A DNA stretch of 64,000 bases from a virus (IMGVR_UViG_3300037067_019204:1-64000), one strand, 5' to 3'. Positions 14,986-41,056 are shown, numbered from the stretch's first letter. Notes: generated by a model not told the origin, from the letters alone. Program-made: numbers and translations.

Positions 14986-14991
14986 GATACT

Positions 14992-15070
14992 CAGGAGTGA
15001 CAAGATTCGAACTTGCAATGCAAAAGCACGGTTTTGGAGACCGCTGGGTTAGCCATTACCCCACACTCCT
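14992..15070 (-). tRNA. tRNA-Trp(CCA) with extended variable arm
   Basis: GCGGT-CT-CCA-AA-ACCGT; variable region GC-TTTT-GC-AT. Confidence 0.85.
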
Positions 15071-15167
15071 AAAATCCTTCACATAAACAATAATAATTAA
15101 TTAATAAAAAAAGTCAAGTATATTATATTAATAATTTTAATTTTTTATCAATTATTATTATAGTAAC

Positions 15168-15246
15168 AGCGGCTGACGAGAATCGAACTCGTAATGCTTT
15201 CGCATCAGTTTGGAAGACTGATGGCATACCATTAGCCCACAGCCGC
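15168..15246 (-). tRNA. tRNA-Gly(TCC) with extended variable arm
   Basis: TCAGT-CT-TCC-AA-ACTGA; variable region TGC-GAAA-GCA; GCG start, U73. Confidence 0.88.
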
Positions 15247-32866: not shown

Positions 32867-34390
32867 TTATGCAATATCAATCCTTATATCATGCTTTTTA
32901 CAATATTTGTTGATTATGTGCCGATGATCTTTATTCTCAATACTTGTGTTTCTCTTTGCTCGTAATTGAATTACACGATTTTTTCTAATTTCCATATTGT
33001 ATAGTAATTCCCCACATTTTTTATCATATATGCCCAATAGTATGCATTCTTTAGTTCTATATCTATCTGAATAAGAAGCAATACAATTATGCATCATACT
33101 ACCCCAACTAGCTAAATCAGAGGGCTGGTGTGGAACAGTAAACTTTAATTCATCTATATCTTCTTCATATTTATGGAGATCTTCTATCTCATATGGTTTA
33201 TTCCTATCTTTCATCGTTATATAATTCTGTATTTTTGAAAAAGTATCATGCAAATGTTGTGGAGTAAAACATTTTTTTTCTTGTTTTAGTATTTCCATAT
33301 TTTTAAATTCATTATCTTTTTTTATTGTATGATACATCCTAAGTGTATCATAATTATGAGGATAATTCAAAAATGAATTAGATTTTTGTGTATATCCATA
33401 AGATATATCAGGAGACAATGATTCTCGTTTATCATCATCTCTCATTATAAAATCAGCTAATTTATTTTCTGATAATTCTTTTTTAACATCTTTAGCAAAC
33501 ACTTCAAAATGTTCTGGTAATAAAAATAAATTATTAACATGCTCATTATACTCATTACGAGCATTGTAATAATTAAGAATATGTTTTAAAACAGAGGTTT
33601 TTATATCAAGATTATCAAATTGTTTACAAATTATAGGGAGACGATAAAAATCAATTTTTTTGATTGGAGTATCTAATAAATTTCTAACAATAGATTTTTT
33701 GTATGGTAATTCCATAAAGTTAATTAAATCTTTTACAGTAGAAATTTCCATATCTTTAAATATTTCTCTGTGCTTGTCATATTTTAATGAATACAAAAAA
33801 TCAGAACTAAGTTTAAGAATGGGAAAATGATCATAAACCATATAAGCAAAAAATAAATTAACAGGTAATTCTTCCCCAAAAAGATATTCTGATATAGTTT
33901 TATAAATTCTATAGTATTGTTGTTCAAATAATTTAGCATTAGCACCTAATTTATATTTTGTGGCTTTGTATATAAAAGAAATAGGATTATCTACATCAAG
34001 ATAGTCCCAAAATTTAAAAGTTTCACTATCAGAAGATATAAAAGATTCAGGATCAAAAGAAAGAACAGAATTTTTTTCTTTTTTTTCTAGTTCATCTCCT
34101 TTAAATTTAAAGGAACTATTTTTATGAATAATAGAAGCAGATCTTTTATTATTTTCTTCATGTAATTCTAAAATTACTCTTTCAATTTGATCTGAAGCAG
34201 ATATATAAGATGTTGTATTACAATTAGAACAGGAATATAGTTTACTATTAGGAACTAATACTTCTGGAATAAAAAAAGTTTTTTGGCATTCAGTACAATA
34301 TACTGTACTTCCCAAAGAGCTACGTTTATTTCTATTTAAAATAAATAGTGGGATAACTTCTTTATTAACTGGAATAGATTCTATAAGCAT
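32867..34390 (-). CDS. PcfJ-domain protein
   Basis: VPHQPSDLASWGSMMHNCIASY...MEIR...IQLRAKRN. Confidence 0.75.
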   Translation of the reverse strand: MLIESIPVNKEVIPLFILNRNKRSSLGSTVYCTECQKTFFIPEVLVPNSKLYSCSNCNTTSYISASDQIERVILELHEENNKRSASIIHKNSSFKFKGDELEKKEKNSVLSFDPESFISSDSETFKFWDYLDVDNPISFIYKATKYKLGANAKLFEQQYYRIYKTISEYLFGEELPVNLFFAYMVYDHFPILKLSSDFLYSLKYDKHREIFKDMEISTVKDLINFMELPYKKSIVRNLLDTPIKKIDFYRLPIICKQFDNLDIKTSVLKHILNYYNARNEYNEHVNNLFLLPEHFEVFAKDVKKELSENKLADFIMRDDDKRESLSPDISYGYTQKSNSFLNYPHNYDTLRMYHTIKKDNEFKNMEILKQEKKCFTPQHLHDTFSKIQNYITMKDRNKPYEIEDLHKYEEDIDELKFTVPHQPSDLASWGSMMHNCIASYSDRYRTKECILLGIYDKKCGELLYNMEIRKNRVIQLRAKRNTSIENKDHRHIINKYCKKHDIRIDIA

Positions 34391-34396
34391 GTTAAG

Positions 34397-34825
34397 TTAC
34401 ATCATTTCATTTAATAATTCACGAACCTTCATTAAACTAATACCTAATTGATTTCTACCCACACCATTAATTTTTCCCCAATAATTGTCTACTGGGCTTG
34501 CTTCTTCAAGATAAGAATCTCCAGTAGCAATCAATTGTTCGGCAATATCTTTATTTTGCGTAAATTTGCATACTAACGCAAAAAGCATTATTTTATCTTT
34601 AACTTGATCCCAATCTTTTCTTAAAGCAATAATATTACCATTTTGTCTAGATAACTTAGGTGTAGGACTTTTTCTTATAAATTCATGGTCAGATTCTGTT
34701 TTTGCTTTATATGCTTGATAAAAATGTTCTGAGGTTGGATATAATTTACCATTACATATAATTTCAGATTTATAAAAATTAGACATAAATCCAAATTGCT
34801 CATTTGTTTTATAAAATTTTATCAT
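34397..34825 (-). CDS. NADAR (YbiA-like) family protein
   Basis: SNFY...SEHFYQAYK...KFTQN...LEEASP.DNYWG...GRNQLG. Confidence 0.9.
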   Translation of the reverse strand: MIKFYKTNEQFGFMSNFYKSEIICNGKLYPTSEHFYQAYKAKTESDHEFIRKSPTPKLSRQNGNIIALRKDWDQVKDKIMLFALVCKFTQNKDIAEQLIATGDSYLEEASPVDNYWGKINGVGRNQLGISLMKVRELLNEMM

Positions 34826-34943: not shown

Positions 34944-36560
34944 TTATAGTTTTCCCATACTAAATTGACTAATTATTTGTGGTGCGGCACTATCAAATCC
35001 TACTATATCCAATGAATTTGGATCTTGAGGATCTGCTATAGAAAATTCAGACCCAACCATTCCAACAACAATCATTTTAGCATCTTTAATCCTCTGGTTT
35101 CTATACTCATGCAAGGCTTGCATAGGATGCATCTTCCCAAACCAAGTTTCATTATCTGTATATGTAACAAATACATCAAAATCAAGTTTCCTATCTTTTG
35201 CCCATATCATTGGAACAGAGCAATCAGTTCCAGCAAAAGGAAGATTTCTCATTTTTTGAAGAGTTTGTCCCAATGTCATATCTGGAGTTATGTCCAAATT
35301 AACAAAATTTGTAGAAAAACCCATTACTTCATAATTTTGTTCTTTTCTTGCTGTAACCATAGCCATACAAGCACTAGCTTCACGACAAGTTAATATCCCC
35401 TGTGCTCCAGAAATATAACTATTTGTCATTGAACCAGATACATCTAGCCCAAGAAGATAACGTTTTCCTGTAGATTCAACATTTTTAAAACTTAAATAAA
35501 ACATTTCTTCAAGAGCATCCACAATTTTTTGAACAGGAACCCAAGAAAGTTTTCCTTTAATTCCATGACCCATTGAATATGTCTTCATGGCAATCAAGAT
35601 ATTCAAAGGATGCATTCTACTTTTTTCTACATGAGAAAGATCAGTTAATTTTTTTGTAACTAAATTAATCTCATCAAACTTACCTTTTGAAAGAATTTCT
35701 AAAGAGCTTAGTTTTCCGAGATTACGAACCAAAGCTCCTAAAGGCAAATCATCCAAAGCAGAATTCCATACTTTTGCACGATTCTTTAACTCTGTTGGCC
35801 ATGCTTCATGAGGAATCTTATATTCTTTTATAAGCTTGCAAGCATCTTTTTCAGAAGCGTTTTTAAGTTCTTCTACAGCTTTCAAAAGATTAAATCCTTC
35901 AGAAATCTCACCTTTAACTGCATATTTAAACAATGAATTATGCTTATCAGACACAGGTTTTACGTGCGCAGAACGAAGCACATCACGATGTGTCCATTGG
36001 TTATTTGAACCTTCTACAGTACGACCTTGATACTTGATCATTTGATATTCAAGTTTTTCTGGGGACATGCTATACCAATTAGCTATAGCACTACGCACTG
36101 AACGACCCCAACTTCTCATTGAATCCAAGTAATGCACAAACATAAACAAGTGTGTTCCTATACGGCATACTTTAGGAAGTGCTTGAACAATTTCTTTTTT
36201 AACATCAAAATCTTTGCATTGAGTAAACAATACTGCTAACAAATAGATTGCTTGATCATTTTTAGGTGCACGGCCCTCATCAGAAATTTTAACTATTGTT
36301 TCAAGAACACGCTTTGGGTTTTCATTAATACAAGCAATACAGTTTTCTATATTAGCTTTAGTCAAATCATGTTCTGAAACATAATATGTTCCACCCTCTG
36401 AAGAAAGGATAAGAAATCTTTCCAATCTTTTCCATTTGTCAATAATGAAGGTATAACCACCTGCATTATTCATAGCCATTTCTTTTTCACGACCCGGAAT
36501 GGGCTTATATTGAGGTGTTCTCTTGTTATTAATTTGATGTTTTGTGTAATTGATAGCCAT
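34944..36560 (-). CDS. rsr: Ro60/Rsr RNA-binding protein (TROVE + vWA)
   Basis: NNAGGY...LERFLILSSEGGTYY; WTHRDVLRSAH; ALVRNLG; MIDAS DVSGS; TDNET; GFDS. Confidence 0.95.
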   Translation of the reverse strand: MAINYTKHQINNKRTPQYKPIPGREKEMAMNNAGGYTFIIDKWKRLERFLILSSEGGTYYVSEHDLTKANIENCIACINENPKRVLETIVKISDEGRAPKNDQAIYLLAVLFTQCKDFDVKKEIVQALPKVCRIGTHLFMFVHYLDSMRSWGRSVRSAIANWYSMSPEKLEYQMIKYQGRTVEGSNNQWTHRDVLRSAHVKPVSDKHNSLFKYAVKGEISEGFNLLKAVEELKNASEKDACKLIKEYKIPHEAWPTELKNRAKVWNSALDDLPLGALVRNLGKLSSLEILSKGKFDEINLVTKKLTDLSHVEKSRMHPLNILIAMKTYSMGHGIKGKLSWVPVQKIVDALEEMFYLSFKNVESTGKRYLLGLDVSGSMTNSYISGAQGILTCREASACMAMVTARKEQNYEVMGFSTNFVNLDITPDMTLGQTLQKMRNLPFAGTDCSVPMIWAKDRKLDFDVFVTYTDNETWFGKMHPMQALHEYRNQRIKDAKMIVVGMVGSEFSIADPQDPNSLDIVGFDSAAPQIISQFSMGKL

Positions 36561-36580
36561 AGCTAATCTCCTTTTATAAA

Positions 36581-36649
36581 TTTAGGTCAAGTAGTTGTAA
36601 TGGAATTGCATCACCCAAATGTAGATAACCCATCACGTCCGTACCTAAA
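36581..36649 (-). ncRNA. Y-RNA-like gene 5 (compact)
   Basis: TTTAGGTACGGA-CGTGATGG-GTTATC...CCATTAC-AACTA-CTTGACCTAAA. Confidence 0.8.
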
Positions 36650-36655
36650 AACCTA

Positions 36656-36782
36656 TGGCCAAAGAGTTGGACTCGAACCAACGACCCACAGTTTCCAATG
36701 ATAACCCTATTCTCCGTGCATTTCTGCCAAGTTGTTGAAAAGGGAAATACAACTGCTGCTCTACCAACTGAGCTATCTTTGA
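36656..36782 (-). ncRNA. Y-RNA-like gene 4: tRNA body with Ro-binding helix in place of anticodon loop
   Basis: Canonical acceptor, D and T arms; insert ...CTTGGCA-GAAA-TGCACGGA-GAATAGGG-TTATC...; acceptor followed by CCA. Confidence 0.8.
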
Positions 36783-36790
36783 CATGCATA

Positions 36791-36870
36791 TTTGGTAAAT
36801 TTTTTTTGATCAGAAAGTTCTTTTCAGAACAACCAATTTCATGTTGATAACTGATCAAATCCGTACCAAA
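36791..36870 (-). ncRNA. Y-RNA-like gene 3 (compact)
   Basis: TTTGGTACGGA-TTTGATCAG-TTATC...CTGATCAAA...TTTACCAAA. Confidence 0.75.
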
Positions 36871-36873
36871 ATT

Positions 36874-36997
36874 TTCCGTGGGTTGGACTTGAACCAACGA
36901 CCCCTTCCTTACAATGGATAATCCTCTTTCATTCGTACATTACTGTCAAGTGGTGAAAAAGGAACTTTAAGTGCTCTACCAATTGAGCTACCACGGA
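36874..36997 (-). ncRNA. Y-RNA-like gene 2: tRNA body with Ro-binding helix in place of anticodon loop
   Basis: TCCGTGG/CCACGGA acceptor, canonical D and T arms; insert ...CTTGACA-GTAA-TGTACGAA-TGAAAGAGGA-TTATC... Confidence 0.8.
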
Positions 36998-37007
36998 ATA
37001 TATACTA

Positions 37008-37072
37008 CAGGTAAAATTTATACTATTCGGGGGGTATCTCTTGACTTGATAACCGAATAGAATCCGTACCTG
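37008..37072 (-). ncRNA. Y-RNA-like gene 1 (compact)
   Basis: CAGGTACGGA-TTCTATTCGG-TTATC...CCGAATAG...TTTACCTG; TTGACA box about 35 nt upstream. Confidence 0.75.
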
Positions 37073-37131
37073 ATATTTTCATATAATATAAATATTAAAT
37101 ACTTGTCAACAAAAAAATTATCAATAAAACA

Positions 37132-37165
37132 AAAAAAGCGGTGGATTTTAAGGCCCACCGCTTTT
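37132..37165 (-). terminator. Intrinsic terminator
   Basis: AGCGGTGG...CCACCGC-TTTTTTT. Confidence 0.75.
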
Positions 37166-37290
37166 AATATAAAAATTACGTATATATAAATTCTAACTTC
37201 AACCTGTACGGGAAGCTAGAAATATTCAGGAATTGTATTTAAACTTTCCTGAGTTGTAATGGGTGATGACTTTTTTAAAATCTTAATAAG

Positions 37291-37319
37291 ATTATACTAA
37301 TTATTTTTCAAAACGTCAA
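37291..37319 (-). promoter_or_regulatory. Sigma70-type promoter
   Basis: TTGACG-N17-TATAAT. Confidence 0.7.
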
Positions 37320-39973: not shown

Positions 39974-41056
39974 TTAAGCCCTATACATTGTTAAATGTAT
40001 AATTTTTCCATTAAATTCTACAGCCTCTCCCATTAATCGTTTAGTCTTATTTCTATCTTCATTTTCAGGAAGAATTTGCCTAATTTCAATAACTTTGTAT
40101 TCTTTATTATCAAATAAAGTTTTTTCTTCAAAAGTTGTATTTAATTTCTTTCCAAGGAGGGCTTTTACTTTCTCTGCTTTAAACTCAAAAAGATTAGTAT
40201 CATCTTTTTTCAGATAATTACTACCTTCTTTTTCAACAACATCATTTTTTACAGCTTTCCAAGAATCTGGAAGATCATATACATCTAAACCCTTTATCTC
40301 ATTTTCATAAAGAAAAATAGCACCAATTTGGTTTTCAATAGGTGGTATTTTTTTAAGCATTTTTTGAATCATATCTGACATTTCATCAAGTGTTCCAACA
40401 AGATCATCACAATACAATGATCTTACATTAACATCTCCAAGAGTATCATTTCCTGAAATATCTAAATGAGTATGAGATGCTGAATATATTTCAGCAGGAA
40501 GTACCATACTAGTAGTTGTTATTTCAGGATCATAGAATCTACGAGCTGGATTTCTAAGTATATTTTTGTCAGTGCTTTTTAAGTTTGATGTGGTTGCATA
40601 TTGAGTATTAAAGTTACTAACAGTACTCCAAGTGCGAGACTGACTGGAAAGATCTACATCATAAGGTGCATATCCTCCAAATTTCATCTCAGCTCCCTTT
40701 GAAATACCTTTTGTTTGGTGGATACAACGAACAGAAACTTTTTGACCTCTCCCTGCTCCTATAATGTATCCATGAATTGCAGCTCTTTCTTGGGTTTTAC
40801 CTTTAAAGATTTCACCACGACTAATAAACAGTGGTTTATCTTCATTATTTTTTACATACACAGAATCAACAGCCCCTGTGTCTTCTACTTTTACATCTTG
40901 AGCTTCTGCAAAAGTAATGTAATCTCTTTTCAAGTCACTGTCTCTTTTAACAGGAACAATAACTGAAAGACTTCCTTCATCCAATCTCCAAGCCTCATCG
41001 AGCTGGAATCCATTGGTCTCCTCTACGATAGACTTGATAAAATTTTGTGCTGACAT
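39974..41056 (-). CDS. ARPP-1 (DUF6569)-like protein
   Basis: VKNNEDKPLFISRGEIFKGKTQER...VSVRCI; C-terminal GEAVEFNGKIIHL. Confidence 0.6.
   Translation of the reverse strand: MSAQNFIKSIVEETNGFQLDEAWRLDEGSLSVIVPVKRDSDLKRDYITFAEAQDVKVEDTGAVDSVYVKNNEDKPLFISRGEIFKGKTQERAAIHGYIIGAGRGQKVSVRCIHQTKGISKGAEMKFGGYAPYDVDLSSQSRTWSTVSNFNTQYATTSNLKSTDKNILRNPARRFYDPEITTTSMVLPAEIYSASHTHLDISGNDTLGDVNVRSLYCDDLVGTLDEMSDMIQKMLKKIPPIENQIGAIFLYENEIKGLDVYDLPDSWKAVKNDVVEKEGSNYLKKDDTNLFEFKAEKVKALLGKKLNTTFEEKTLFDNKEYKVIEIRQILPENEDRNKTKRLMGEAVEFNGKIIHLTMYRA

What the first reader, a model, noticed from the sequence alone, without database searches (positions are those of the whole stretch)
36656..36997. tRNA-Y RNA chimeras: Ro-binding helix grafted in place of the anticodon loop
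Seen: two genes in normal tRNA order (acceptor-D-anticodon stem-T-acceptor) whose anticodon loop is replaced by a ~55-60-nt insert. In the insert the 3' Ro strand comes first and a GNRA tetraloop joins it to the 5' strand (CTTGACA-GTAA-TGTACGAA; CTTGGCA-GAAA-TGCACGGA), followed by TTATC. Known: described YrlA RNAs have their ends in the Ro helix and a loop-closed acceptor stem, so these are the circular permutation with a free acceptor end. Inference: they could be matured by RNase P and CCA enzymes, which would also cut out the neighbouring compact Y RNAs. They might be aminoacylated, tether Ro60 to tRNA-binding enzymes, or decoy tRNA-targeting toxins.
Basis: partly seen in the sequence, partly recalled or inferred. 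Interest (0 to 1): 0.9.

Follow-up and report, generated by a model that had tools for sequence, protein, structure and literature searches.

The report
tRNA-shaped Y RNAs beside phage Ro60
Just upstream of its own Ro60 gene, this uncultured phage encodes two RNAs built like complete tRNAs that carry Ro60's docking helix as an extra loop-closed arm in the anticodon stem; this is the bacterial Y RNA "YrlA" wired in the opposite circular order, a layout that is widespread but that I could not find described.

Summary
On the minus strand, 36997-36874 and 36782-36658 are tRNA-shaped genes (Rfam tRNA 48 and 44 bits). Each has a 7-bp acceptor stem, D and T arms, and a 51-52-nt arm in the anticodon stem. 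The arm holds the bulged Ro60-binding helix of Y RNAs with its 3' strand first, closed by GUAA or GAAA, then UUAUC.

They alternate with three small ordinary Y RNAs, directly upstream of a Ro60 gene (36560-34944).

One correction: the anticodon loop is not simply replaced. A 7-nt loop remains in both copies. In copy 1 the arm is a side branch of a 5-bp anticodon stem.

With strict criteria, 72 distinct relatives lie in 45 Ro60 loci from viral contigs and bacterial genome assemblies, with strong covariation. A profile of them, cut at the arm tip and rejoined at the acceptor ends, matches classical phage YrlAs in one piece. So the circular permutation is real.

Rfam's YrlA model does not detect them, and I found no paper describing this layout. 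Earlier agents of this scan reported the same layout on other DNA.

Most likely they are non-decoding, tRNA-processed partner RNAs of Ro60. Processing, Ro60 binding and possible splicing are untested, because no RNA data could be obtained.

The parts
37104..37109 (-). TTGACA, a possible -35 box of the Y-RNA/Ro60 operon, followed by an AT-rich stretch with no good -10 box
   Evidence: Read directly from the sequence. The consensus scan did not call a promoter here. An intrinsic terminator of the upstream unit ends at 37134. This part is tentative.
37008..37072 (-). Compact Y RNA a: ends paired as GGUACGGA.../...UUUUACC, with an internal GUUAUC
   Evidence: Fold of -16.4 kcal/mol, z = -3.0. Motifs read.
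36874..36997 (-). tRNA-shaped Y RNA, copy 1 (type B: arm splits the anticodon stem; loop AUUGUAA kept)
   Evidence: Rfam tRNA 48.3 bits. Family model R1 108.4 bits. 7/7 acceptor pairs. The minimum-energy fold gives a cloverleaf plus arm.
36918..36968 (-). Copy 1 Y arm (51 nt): upper stem, Ro helix and UUAU
   Evidence: The upper stem covaries in the family: 10 of 10 pairs.
36932..36950 (-). Copy 1 Ro60-binding helix, CUUG-ACA-GUAA-UGU-A-CGAA (3' strand first, GNRA loop, bulged A)
   Evidence: Family statistics.
36909..36915 (-). Copy 1 anticodon-like 7-nt loop AUUGUAA (triplet UGU)
36790..36873 (-). Compact Y RNA b. It starts directly after the discriminator of copy 1 and ends 7 nt before copy 2
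   Evidence: Rfam sbRNA model (a Y RNA homologue) 25.8 bits, E = 0.0085, below its cut-off of 38. Fold z = -2.5.
36658..36782 (-). tRNA-shaped Y RNA, copy 2 (type A: full 5-bp anticodon stem GCAGU/ACUGU encloses arm + UUAUC + AUUGGAA)
   Evidence: Rfam tRNA 44.2 bits. R1 95.6 bits. 7/7 acceptor pairs.
36700..36751 (-). Copy 2 Y arm (52 nt)
36713..36731 (-). Copy 2 Ro60-binding helix, CUUG-GCA-GAAA-UGC-A-CGGA
36580..36651 (-). Compact Y RNA c (GGUACGGA.../...CUUGACC, GUUAUC)
   Evidence: Rfam sbRNA model 24.7 bits, E = 0.016. Fold z = -2.6.
34944..36560 (-). Ro60 gene (538 aa; TROVE + Ro60 vWA domains); AAAGGAG ribosome-binding site at 36574-36568
   Evidence: Pfam vWA_Ro60 E = 1.8e-65 and TROVE E = 3.5e-35. 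PDB matches: human RO60 E = 4.6e-113, D. radiodurans Rsr 8e-109, Xenopus Ro60 1e-106.

Best explanation
The two genes encode non-decoding, tRNA-shaped Y RNAs, a one-piece, tRNA-ordered form of YrlA.

Proposed mechanism:
1. The whole array (Y a, copy 1, Y b, copy 2, Y c) is transcribed with the Ro60 mRNA (inferred).
2. The tRNA bodies are recognised by RNase P at the 5' end and by 3' trimming and the CCA-adding enzyme at the 3' end. This also frees the interleaved compact Y RNAs (inferred by analogy with M. smegmatis YrlA).
3. The arm stays in the mature RNA. It docks phage Ro60 through the conserved bulged helix, which here is closed by a tetraloop instead of by the RNA's ends (inferred from sequence conservation and strict linkage to Ro60).
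4. The L-shaped tRNA body, with a free acceptor end and in type B an exposed anticodon-like loop, is the effector module. It brings Ro60 together with a tRNA-recognising factor. That factor is unknown; the phage's own RtcB ligase and the known Ro60/YrlA/RtcB link to damaged tRNAs point to tRNA damage or repair during infection (speculative).
For: Anatomy and significance:
- The anatomy is read directly from the sequence, with Rfam tRNA hits.
- These are the only two such genes in the 161-kb record, and both abut Ro60.

Family:
- 72 distinct members in 45 Ro60 loci have 7/7 acceptor pairs and a bulged Ro helix closed by a 3-14-nt loop. The loop is 3-4 nt in 52 members, with GNRA, UNCG and CUYG types.
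- Members occur in viral contigs and in bacterial assemblies from Chloroflexota, Armatimonadota, Myxococcota (including the isolate Polyangium sp. 6x1), Gemmatimonadota, Verrucomicrobiota and Planctomycetota.

Covariation on 36 members:
- 87.3% of cells are paired against 67.3% after shuffling (0 of 500 shuffles reach this).
- Acceptor 100%, D 99.3%, T 99.4% and Ro helix 88.4% paired; the arm's upper stem covaries at 10 of 10 pairs.

Linkage to Ro60, tested without using Ro60:
- A DNA pattern for the loop-closed helix found 16 viral loci.
- The 7 that are chimeras by the model all have Ro60 in the locus or contig.

Permutation:
- The permuted profile hits classical YrlAs of Sixama, FuzzBuster, Magritte, Dandelion and BearBQ in one piece (45-67 bits). 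The unpermuted profile hits only halves.

Against decoding:
- The phage already has ordinary tRNA-Thr(UGU) and tRNA-Pro(UGG), at most 62% like the chimera bodies.
- Discriminators are A, C, G or U regardless of the triplet.
- Type A members have 3-9 nt, not 7, after the arm.

Precedent and context:
- M. smegmatis YrlA is cut by RNase P and gains CCA in vivo, and it is processed from one precursor upstream of Rsr.
- RtcB is present in the same phage.
Against: - There is no RNA-level evidence.
- No promoter was called by the scan.
- Ro60 binding to a helix whose end is a loop rather than free termini has not been shown for any Ro60.
- Type B members, copy 1 included, would become perfect 73-nt cloverleafs with a 7-nt loop if the arm were removed. 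The phage encodes RtcB, the ligase class used in tRNA splicing. Excision therefore cannot be excluded.
- No CCA-adding enzyme was found in the 161 kb held, which is about 65% of the genome. CCA is genome-encoded in only 3 of 33 members.
Confidence: 0.65

Rival explanations
1. Intron-like insert: the arm is cut out of the precursor and the halves are joined (for example by the phage RtcB). This would give a working tRNA (Thr-UGU-like from copy 1) and a free hairpin Y RNA for Ro60.
For: - Removing the arm restores a 5-bp anticodon stem in 43 of 70 members, against 4.3 expected by chance.
- 31 of 34 type B members then show a Y/A-U-NNN-R-N loop.
- RtcB is encoded in the same phage.
Against: - No bulge-helix-bulge motif is present at the junctions. 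They form a three-way junction with 4-5 unpaired nt on each side (read).
- No splicing endonuclease is known in bacteria (Wang et al. note this).
- No group I intron signal was found.
- Type A members, copy 2 included, would mostly not regain a 7-nt loop.
- The phage already has normal tRNAs with both triplets.
- Discriminators do not fit the triplets.
- Classical YrlAs carry the same modules and are known to stay whole.
Confidence: 0.1
2. Decoding tRNAs that keep the arm: functional, charged tRNAs that carry Ro60 as cargo or are regulated by it.
For: - A complete tRNA body with the tertiary-contact nucleotides U8, A14, G18, G19, A21 and the T loop GUUCRA.
- A free 7-bp acceptor stem.
- Canonical-looking loops in type B.
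Against: - The arm leaves the 5' strand at positions 28-31 of the anticodon stem. From general knowledge of ribosome structure, the small subunit grips the stem there, so passage through the A, P and E sites is unlikely. This is an inference.
- Acceptor stems and discriminators change freely between close relatives while the D and T arms stay fixed. That is unlike orthologous tRNAs held by synthetase identity rules.
- The apparent anticodons include 21 different triplets with no pattern.
Confidence: 0.05
3. Misread array: these are classical permuted YrlAs in tandem, with the real ends in the Ro helix. The 'tRNA order' would be an artefact of reading across units.
For: My model does give such cross-unit hits (23-53 bits) in tandem YrlA arrays of cultured actinophages, for example Beuffert.
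Against: - In the window each Ro helix is closed by a 4-nt GNRA loop.
- Each acceptor 5' strand pairs 7/7 with the 3' strand of the same unit.
- It cannot pair with the neighbouring unit (CCACGGA against UCAAAGA).
- An 84-nt complete Y RNA lies between the units.
Confidence: 0.03

Closest known systems
YrlA (Y RNA-like A; Rfam RF02553; Chen et al. 2014, PMC4201824; structure in Wang et al. 2018, bioRxiv 10.1101/312249)
   Same: - Encoded next to Ro60/Rsr.
- The same modules in the same cyclic order: Ro 5' strand (GNCGAA-like), YUAY/GUUAYC, small hairpin, T arm, acceptor stem, D arm, Ro 3' strand.
- tRNA-like D and T arms with tertiary-contact nucleotides.
- The permuted profile matches phage YrlAs at 45-67 bits in one piece.
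   Different: - Opposite circular permutation. Here the RNA begins and ends in a 7-bp acceptor stem and the Ro helix is closed by a 3-4-nt loop. YrlA begins and ends in the Ro helix and its acceptor stem is a closed loop with no free CCA end.
- Rfam's model scores the locus 12-16 bits against a cut-off of 69.
- In the window's clade the bulged base is A and both strands of the helix match the animal consensus.
[quoted passage not shown] 2014)
   Same: The end state has a free, CCA-tailed acceptor stem on a Ro60-bound tRNA-like Y RNA. It is processed from a precursor upstream of the Ro60 gene.
   Different: That RNA becomes two base-paired pieces (82 + 65 nt) with an open Ro helix. Here one continuous chain would give the same shape.
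D. radiodurans Yrn1 (Chen et al. 2014)
   Same: A Y RNA with a T arm and an anticodon-like arm in tRNA order.
   Different: In Yrn1 the Ro helix takes the place of the acceptor stem and the D arm is incomplete. Here the acceptor stem is free and the Ro helix sits in the anticodon arm.
Animal Y RNAs and nematode stem-bulge RNAs (Rfam RF00019, RF01656)
   Same: - The bulged helix GGU-N-CGA / CUUGACC followed by GUUAUC.
- The three compact Y RNAs of the window resemble sbRNAs (about 25 bits, E about 0.01).
- The Ro60 protein is close to the human and frog proteins.
   Different: - In the chimeras the helix ends in a loop, not in the RNA termini.
- No Rfam Y RNA family reaches its cut-off.
Circularly permuted tRNA genes of red algae and archaea (cited in Wang et al. 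2018)
   Same: The same kind of relationship: two gene orders for one RNA fold.
   Different: Those are real tRNAs restored by splicing enzymes. Here both orders appear to be stable end products bound to Ro60.
tmRNA and viral tRNA-like structures
   Same: tRNA mimics with a free acceptor end that tRNA-end enzymes can process.
   Different: No Ro60 link. Those are charged and act in translation or replication. Nothing here shows charging.

Membership tests
tRNA (RF00005) | Cloverleaf body: 7-bp acceptor stem, D arm, T arm, conserved tertiary-contact nucleotides | tested here: met
   48.3 and 44.2 bits against a cut-off of 29. 7/7 acceptor pairs. U8, A14, G18, A21 and the T-loop bases are invariant in the family.
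tRNA (RF00005) | Uninterrupted 5-bp anticodon stem with a 7-nt loop | tested here: not met
   A 51-52-nt arm lies inside (copy 1) or right after (copy 2) the 5' strand. ARAGORN calls the genes only in intron mode.
tRNA (RF00005) | Synthetase identity elements that fit the anticodon; charging and decoding | tested here: inconclusive
   Discriminators A, C, G and U do not track the triplets. Regular tRNA-Thr and tRNA-Pro are present. Charging cannot be tested with these tools.
YrlA (RF02553) | Encoded beside Ro60 and carrying the Ro-binding 5'-strand motif (GNCGAAN0-1G) | tested here: met
   The genes lie 98-437 nt upstream of Ro60. Relatives have GGGCCGA. The window has GU-A-CGAAUG and GC-A-CGGAG, that is, one extra bulged A.
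YrlA (RF02553) | tRNA-like D arm, T arm and acceptor stem, plus the YUAY motif | tested here: met
YrlA (RF02553) | Topology: 5' and 3' ends pair in the Ro helix; acceptor stem closed by a loop | tested here: not met
   Reversed here: the Ro helix is loop-closed and the acceptor stem is open. Definition taken.
YrlA (RF02553) | Rfam covariance model at or above 69 bits | tested here: not met
   The best hit over the locus is 12 bits. Caveat: the model also missed the YrlAs of Dandelion and BearBQ, and none of the 14 control genomes passed its cut-off. I therefore had no positive control.
YrlA (RF02553) | Homology of modules once the permutation is undone | tested here: met
   The permuted HMM matches six cultured-phage YrlAs in one piece, at 42-67 bits and E = 1e-12 to 4e-20.
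Y RNA in general | Binding by Ro60 | not testable with these tools
   Only linkage and motif conservation are available.
Intron-containing tRNA (archaeal bulge-helix-bulge type or group I) | Bulge-helix-bulge at the junctions, or a group I core | tested here: not met
   A three-way junction is read. No Intron_gpI hit in the locus at E <= 10.

The most novel reading that the evidence does not exclude
These RNAs are CCA-ended tRNA look-alikes whose exposed, fast-changing anticodon-like loops serve as baits or sensors for host enzymes that cut tRNA anticodon loops during anti-phage defence. Ro60 holds the bait. Together with the phage's RtcB ligase, it soaks up the nuclease or channels cut tRNAs to repair. 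That would make Ro60 with tRNA-shaped Y RNAs a phage counter-defence module. The same layout would also mark the ancestral form from which permuted YrlA arose by tandem duplication.
Probability: 0.15. Interest if true: 0.85.

Novelty: new variant of a known kind. Interest (0 to 1): 0.62.

Why it matters
Thirty years after their discovery, what Y RNAs do is still largely open, and the partner of the tRNA-like domain of bacterial YrlA is unknown.

- A second, widespread wiring of the same modules shows what selection keeps: the three-dimensional object (tRNA body plus Ro60 handle), not the chain order.
- This wiring has a free acceptor end and often a canonical 7-nt loop. Questions of CCA addition, charging, EF-Tu binding and nuclease recognition therefore become directly testable on a single short RNA.
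- It bears on the origin of YrlA. Wang et al. proposed a dimeric tRNA. Tandem copies of the form seen here would give YrlA by simple permutation.
- It matters for annotation. Standard bacterial tRNA finders skip these genes and Rfam's YrlA model misses them, so they are invisible in current phage and genome records.
- The co-occurrence with tRNA arrays and RtcB in phages ties Ro60 to the tRNA-centred arms race between phages and hosts.

Tried and rejected
- **Exact-pattern scan.** A scan of viral contigs with the window's helix plus tetraloop gave 16 hits. All were chance, mostly a tail-fibre coding motif.
- **Rfam YrlA model.** It finds nothing here, but it also misses phage YrlAs, so it is a weak test.
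- **Closest Ro60 relative.** At 88% identity it is not on record as a contig. The 68% relative (L018/L098) was used instead.
- **Hairpin parsers.** Two automatic parsers were too permissive and were replaced by an anchored one.
- **Low-scoring long hits.** Hits of my model in tandem arrays proved to be cross-unit artefacts in Beuffert. I therefore count only hits with 7/7 acceptor pairs and a loop-closed helix.
- **Cultured phages.** Eight were checked. Seven (Dandelion, BearBQ, Beuffert, Stanimal, Magritte, Sixama, FuzzBuster) carry the classical permuted form or nothing clear, and Phosso gave no hit. No cultured phage with the tRNA-ordered form was found. The isolate Polyangium sp. 6x1 does carry it.
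- **Origin from the phage's own tRNAs.** A recent duplication of its tRNA-Thr or tRNA-Pro is rejected: identity is at most 62%.
- **Literature.** Four full-text searches and five papers were read. No description of this topology was found. The two Wolin-lab reviews are not held, so absence from the literature is not proven.

Full report
**1. What is there**

The window is the first 64 kb of a 161-kb IMG/VR virus record. It has 20 ordinary tRNA genes on the minus strand. A 538-aa Ro60 gene lies at 36560-34944 (-). It has TROVE and Ro60-vWA domains and is close to human, frog and Deinococcus Ro60 (E = 1e-106 to 5e-113).

Upstream on the same strand, after a terminator ending at 37134, lies a gene-free 500 nt holding five RNA genes:
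- compact Y RNA a (37072-37008)
- chimera 1 (36997-36874)
- compact Y RNA b (36873-36790)
- chimera 2 (36782-36658)
- compact Y RNA c (36651-36580)

The Ro60 ribosome-binding site follows. The compact RNAs have their ends paired as GGUACGGA / (C)UU(G)ACC with an internal GUUAUC. They resemble nematode stem-bulge RNAs, which are Y RNA homologues (about 25 bits, E about 0.01, below Rfam's cut-off).

**2. The two chimeras**

Both pass Rfam's tRNA model (48.3 and 44.2 bits, cut-off 29), with 62 and 58 nt skipped in the anticodon arm. ARAGORN finds them only when introns are allowed. Each has a perfect 7-bp acceptor stem, a standard D arm and T arm, and a 5-nt variable loop.

The extra arm is 51-52 nt and reads, in order:
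- upper-stem strand
- CUUG
- a 3-bp helix closed by GUAA or GAAA
- a bulged A
- CGAA or CGGA
- the other upper-stem strand
- UUAUC

This is the Ro60-binding helix of animal Y RNAs (GGU-C-CGA / CUUGACC, then GUUAUC), with the 3' strand first and a loop where the RNA termini would be.

**3. One correction**

The anticodon loop is not simply replaced.
- In copy 1 the arm interrupts the 5' strand of a 5-bp stem (CUU | arm | CC - AUUGUAA - GGAAG).
- In copy 2 the stem GCAGU/ACUGU is intact, and the arm plus UUAUC precede AUUGGAA.

Relatives fall into the same two types.
- Type B has a split stem (2-3 + 3 bp) and a 7-nt loop reading C/A-U-NNN-A/G-N.
- Type A has the full 5' strand, then the arm, then 3-9 nt that usually end in GGA.

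Several loci carry one of each: L018, L042, L058, L075, L093 and the window.

**4. It is a family, and more than chance**

A covariance model built from 22 copies scores the window's copies 108 and 96 bits. It finds no others in the 161-kb record.

I searched 80 viral Ro60 loci and 80 Ro60 loci from GTDB species-representative assemblies, nearly all of them metagenome bins. With strict criteria (7/7 acceptor pairs and a bulged Ro helix closed by 3-14 nt), 72 distinct members lie in 45 loci.
- The closing loop is 3-4 nt in 52 of them.
- The bulge is C in 64. It is A in the four copies of the window and its 68% relative L018.
- The first apical pair occurs as C-G, U-G, U-A, A-U and G-C.

On a 36-sequence alignment the full structure is 87.3% paired against 67.3% after shuffling (0 of 500 shuffles reach this), and sliding the partners drops it to 38-51%. 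Per element: acceptor 100% (7 of 7 pairs covary), D 99.3%, T 99.4%, arm upper stem 10 of 10 pairs covarying, Ro helix 88.4%.

The 5-bp anticodon stem is restored across the arm in 43 of 70 members, against 4.3 expected.

**5. Linkage to Ro60, tested blind**

A DNA pattern for the loop-closed helix (CTTGCCC-N3-12-GGGCCGA-N8-14-GTTAYC) found 16 viral loci. Seven are chimeras by the model, and all seven have Ro60 in the locus or contig. The other nine have neither and fit the chance expectation.

**6. Relation to YrlA**

Published YrlA has the Ro helix formed by its ends and a loop-closed acceptor stem, with "no free CCA end". It is described as resembling a circularly permuted tRNA.

The YrlAs of cultured actinophages (Dandelion, BearBQ, FuzzBuster, Sixama, Magritte, Beuffert) show the same modules in the same cyclic order. 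This includes GGUUAYC and a small hairpin with a C/A-U-NNN-A-A loop, which Chen et al. call "V".

A profile HMM of my 36 members, cut at the arm tip and rejoined at the acceptor ends, hits those YrlAs in one piece:
- Sixama 66.8 bits
- FuzzBuster 56.8 bits
- Magritte 52.3 bits
- Dandelion 50.2 bits
- BearBQ 44.9 bits
- Beuffert 42.5 bits

The unpermuted profile hits them only as two halves, for example 28 + 21 bits in Dandelion. So the window's RNAs are the circular permutation of YrlA.

Rfam's YrlA model does not see them (at most 16 bits, cut-off 69). That model also missed the phage YrlAs, so it is a narrow test.

The alternative reading, classical YrlAs in tandem, fails here. The acceptor strands pair only within a unit, tetraloops close the helices, and whole Y RNAs separate the units.

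**7. How it most likely works**

What is shown: the fold, its conservation and its linkage to Ro60.

What is inferred by analogy: maturation by RNase P and CCA addition.
- M. smegmatis YrlA has a 7-bp acceptor stem, is cut by RNase P, gains CCA in vivo and comes from one precursor upstream of Rsr.
- In the window, cutting at the tRNA ends would release Y b exactly between the discriminator of copy 1 and 7 nt before copy 2.

What is inferred from conservation: Ro60 docks on the arm.

The tRNA body would then be the effector module, as proposed for YrlA. Its partner is unknown.

Decoding looks unlikely for several reasons.
- The phage already has regular tRNA-Thr(UGU) and tRNA-Pro(UGG), at most 62% like the chimera bodies.
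- Acceptor stems and discriminators drift freely while the D and T arms are fixed.
- The triplets are diverse: 21 kinds among 31 type B loops.
- The arm leaves the stem where the ribosome grips it. This last point is general knowledge and was not tested.

Excision of the arm cannot be excluded for type B. Removal gives a perfect cloverleaf, and the phage has RtcB (G000:C1:137020-138075, 208 bits). Against excision, there is no bulge-helix-bulge motif and no known bacterial splicing endonuclease.

The RtcB gene, the tRNA array, and the known Ro60/YrlA/RtcB operon that responds to damaged tRNAs (abstract of PMC7790460) suggest a role around tRNA damage during infection. That is speculation.

**8. 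Novelty**

I found no description of this topology in four full-text searches or in the key papers. Two reviews are not held.

Earlier agents of this scan reported the same layout in other genomes and likewise found no paper. My tests agree with theirs.

I rate it a new variant of a known kind: the same parts and the same protein partner as YrlA, in a different chain order with a free acceptor end.

**9. Limits**

- There are no RNA data.
- No binding or processing was tested.
- The promoter is not established.
- The counts depend on my parser and on loci chosen through Ro60.

Noticed in passing
window 37130-37319 (-): A strong promoter-like site (TTGACG-17-TATAAT, 11 of 12 matches) and an intrinsic terminator (37165-37134) bracket about 150 nt with no convincing ORF, just upstream of the Y-RNA array. 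This may be a separate small RNA. The weak Rfam hits there are driven by the terminator.
   Followed up: no
window 15168-15246 (-) and 14991-15071 (-): tRNA-Gly(UCC) carries an extra 8-nt GCGAAAGC mini-hairpin in the variable region. tRNA-Trp is 81 nt long.
   Followed up: no
G000:C1:137020-138075 (-) (L192:1480-2628): The same phage record encodes an RtcB RNA ligase (Pfam 215.8 bits). No CCA-adding enzyme (PF01743) and no Rnl2-type ligase (PF09414) was found in the 161 kb held.
   Followed up: partly
window 32867-34825 (-) and 39974-41056 (-): The Ro60 gene is followed by NADAR and PcfJ-like genes, and an ARPP-1 gene lies upstream. All three are families often seen in phage-host conflict regions.
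   Followed up: no
L019:5270-5618; L032:6086-6303: A related phage (Ro60 57% identical) encodes a tmRNA (100.8 bits) 1.1 kb downstream of Ro60. Another Ro60 locus has a group I intron.
   Followed up: no
L104:2170-2330, L106:2225-2365, L191:2184-2300, L190:5378-5490, L189:1800-2050, L187:60-200: Cultured actinophages (Dandelion, BearBQ, FuzzBuster, Sixama, Magritte, Beuffert) carry classical permuted YrlAs, some in tandem. None is annotated in the GenBank records. Their 'V' hairpin has an anticodon-like 7-nt loop (for example CUGUUAA, AUUGCAA, CUGCUAA).
   Followed up: partly
L169:4310-4434 (Polyangium sp. 6x1, NZ_JARZHH010000048.1): A cultured myxobacterium carries a tRNA-ordered Y RNA 230 nt downstream of Ro60. 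The Ro60 gene sits inside an array of more than 15 ordinary tRNA genes, which may be a prophage or a tRNA-array island.
   Followed up: partly
Type A members: window 36693-36699; L042:399-529; L075:1882-2018; L115:4485-4608 and others: After GUUAYC, type A members share a GGA / GGRAC motif just before the 3' strand of the anticodon stem. Its role is unknown.
   Followed up: no
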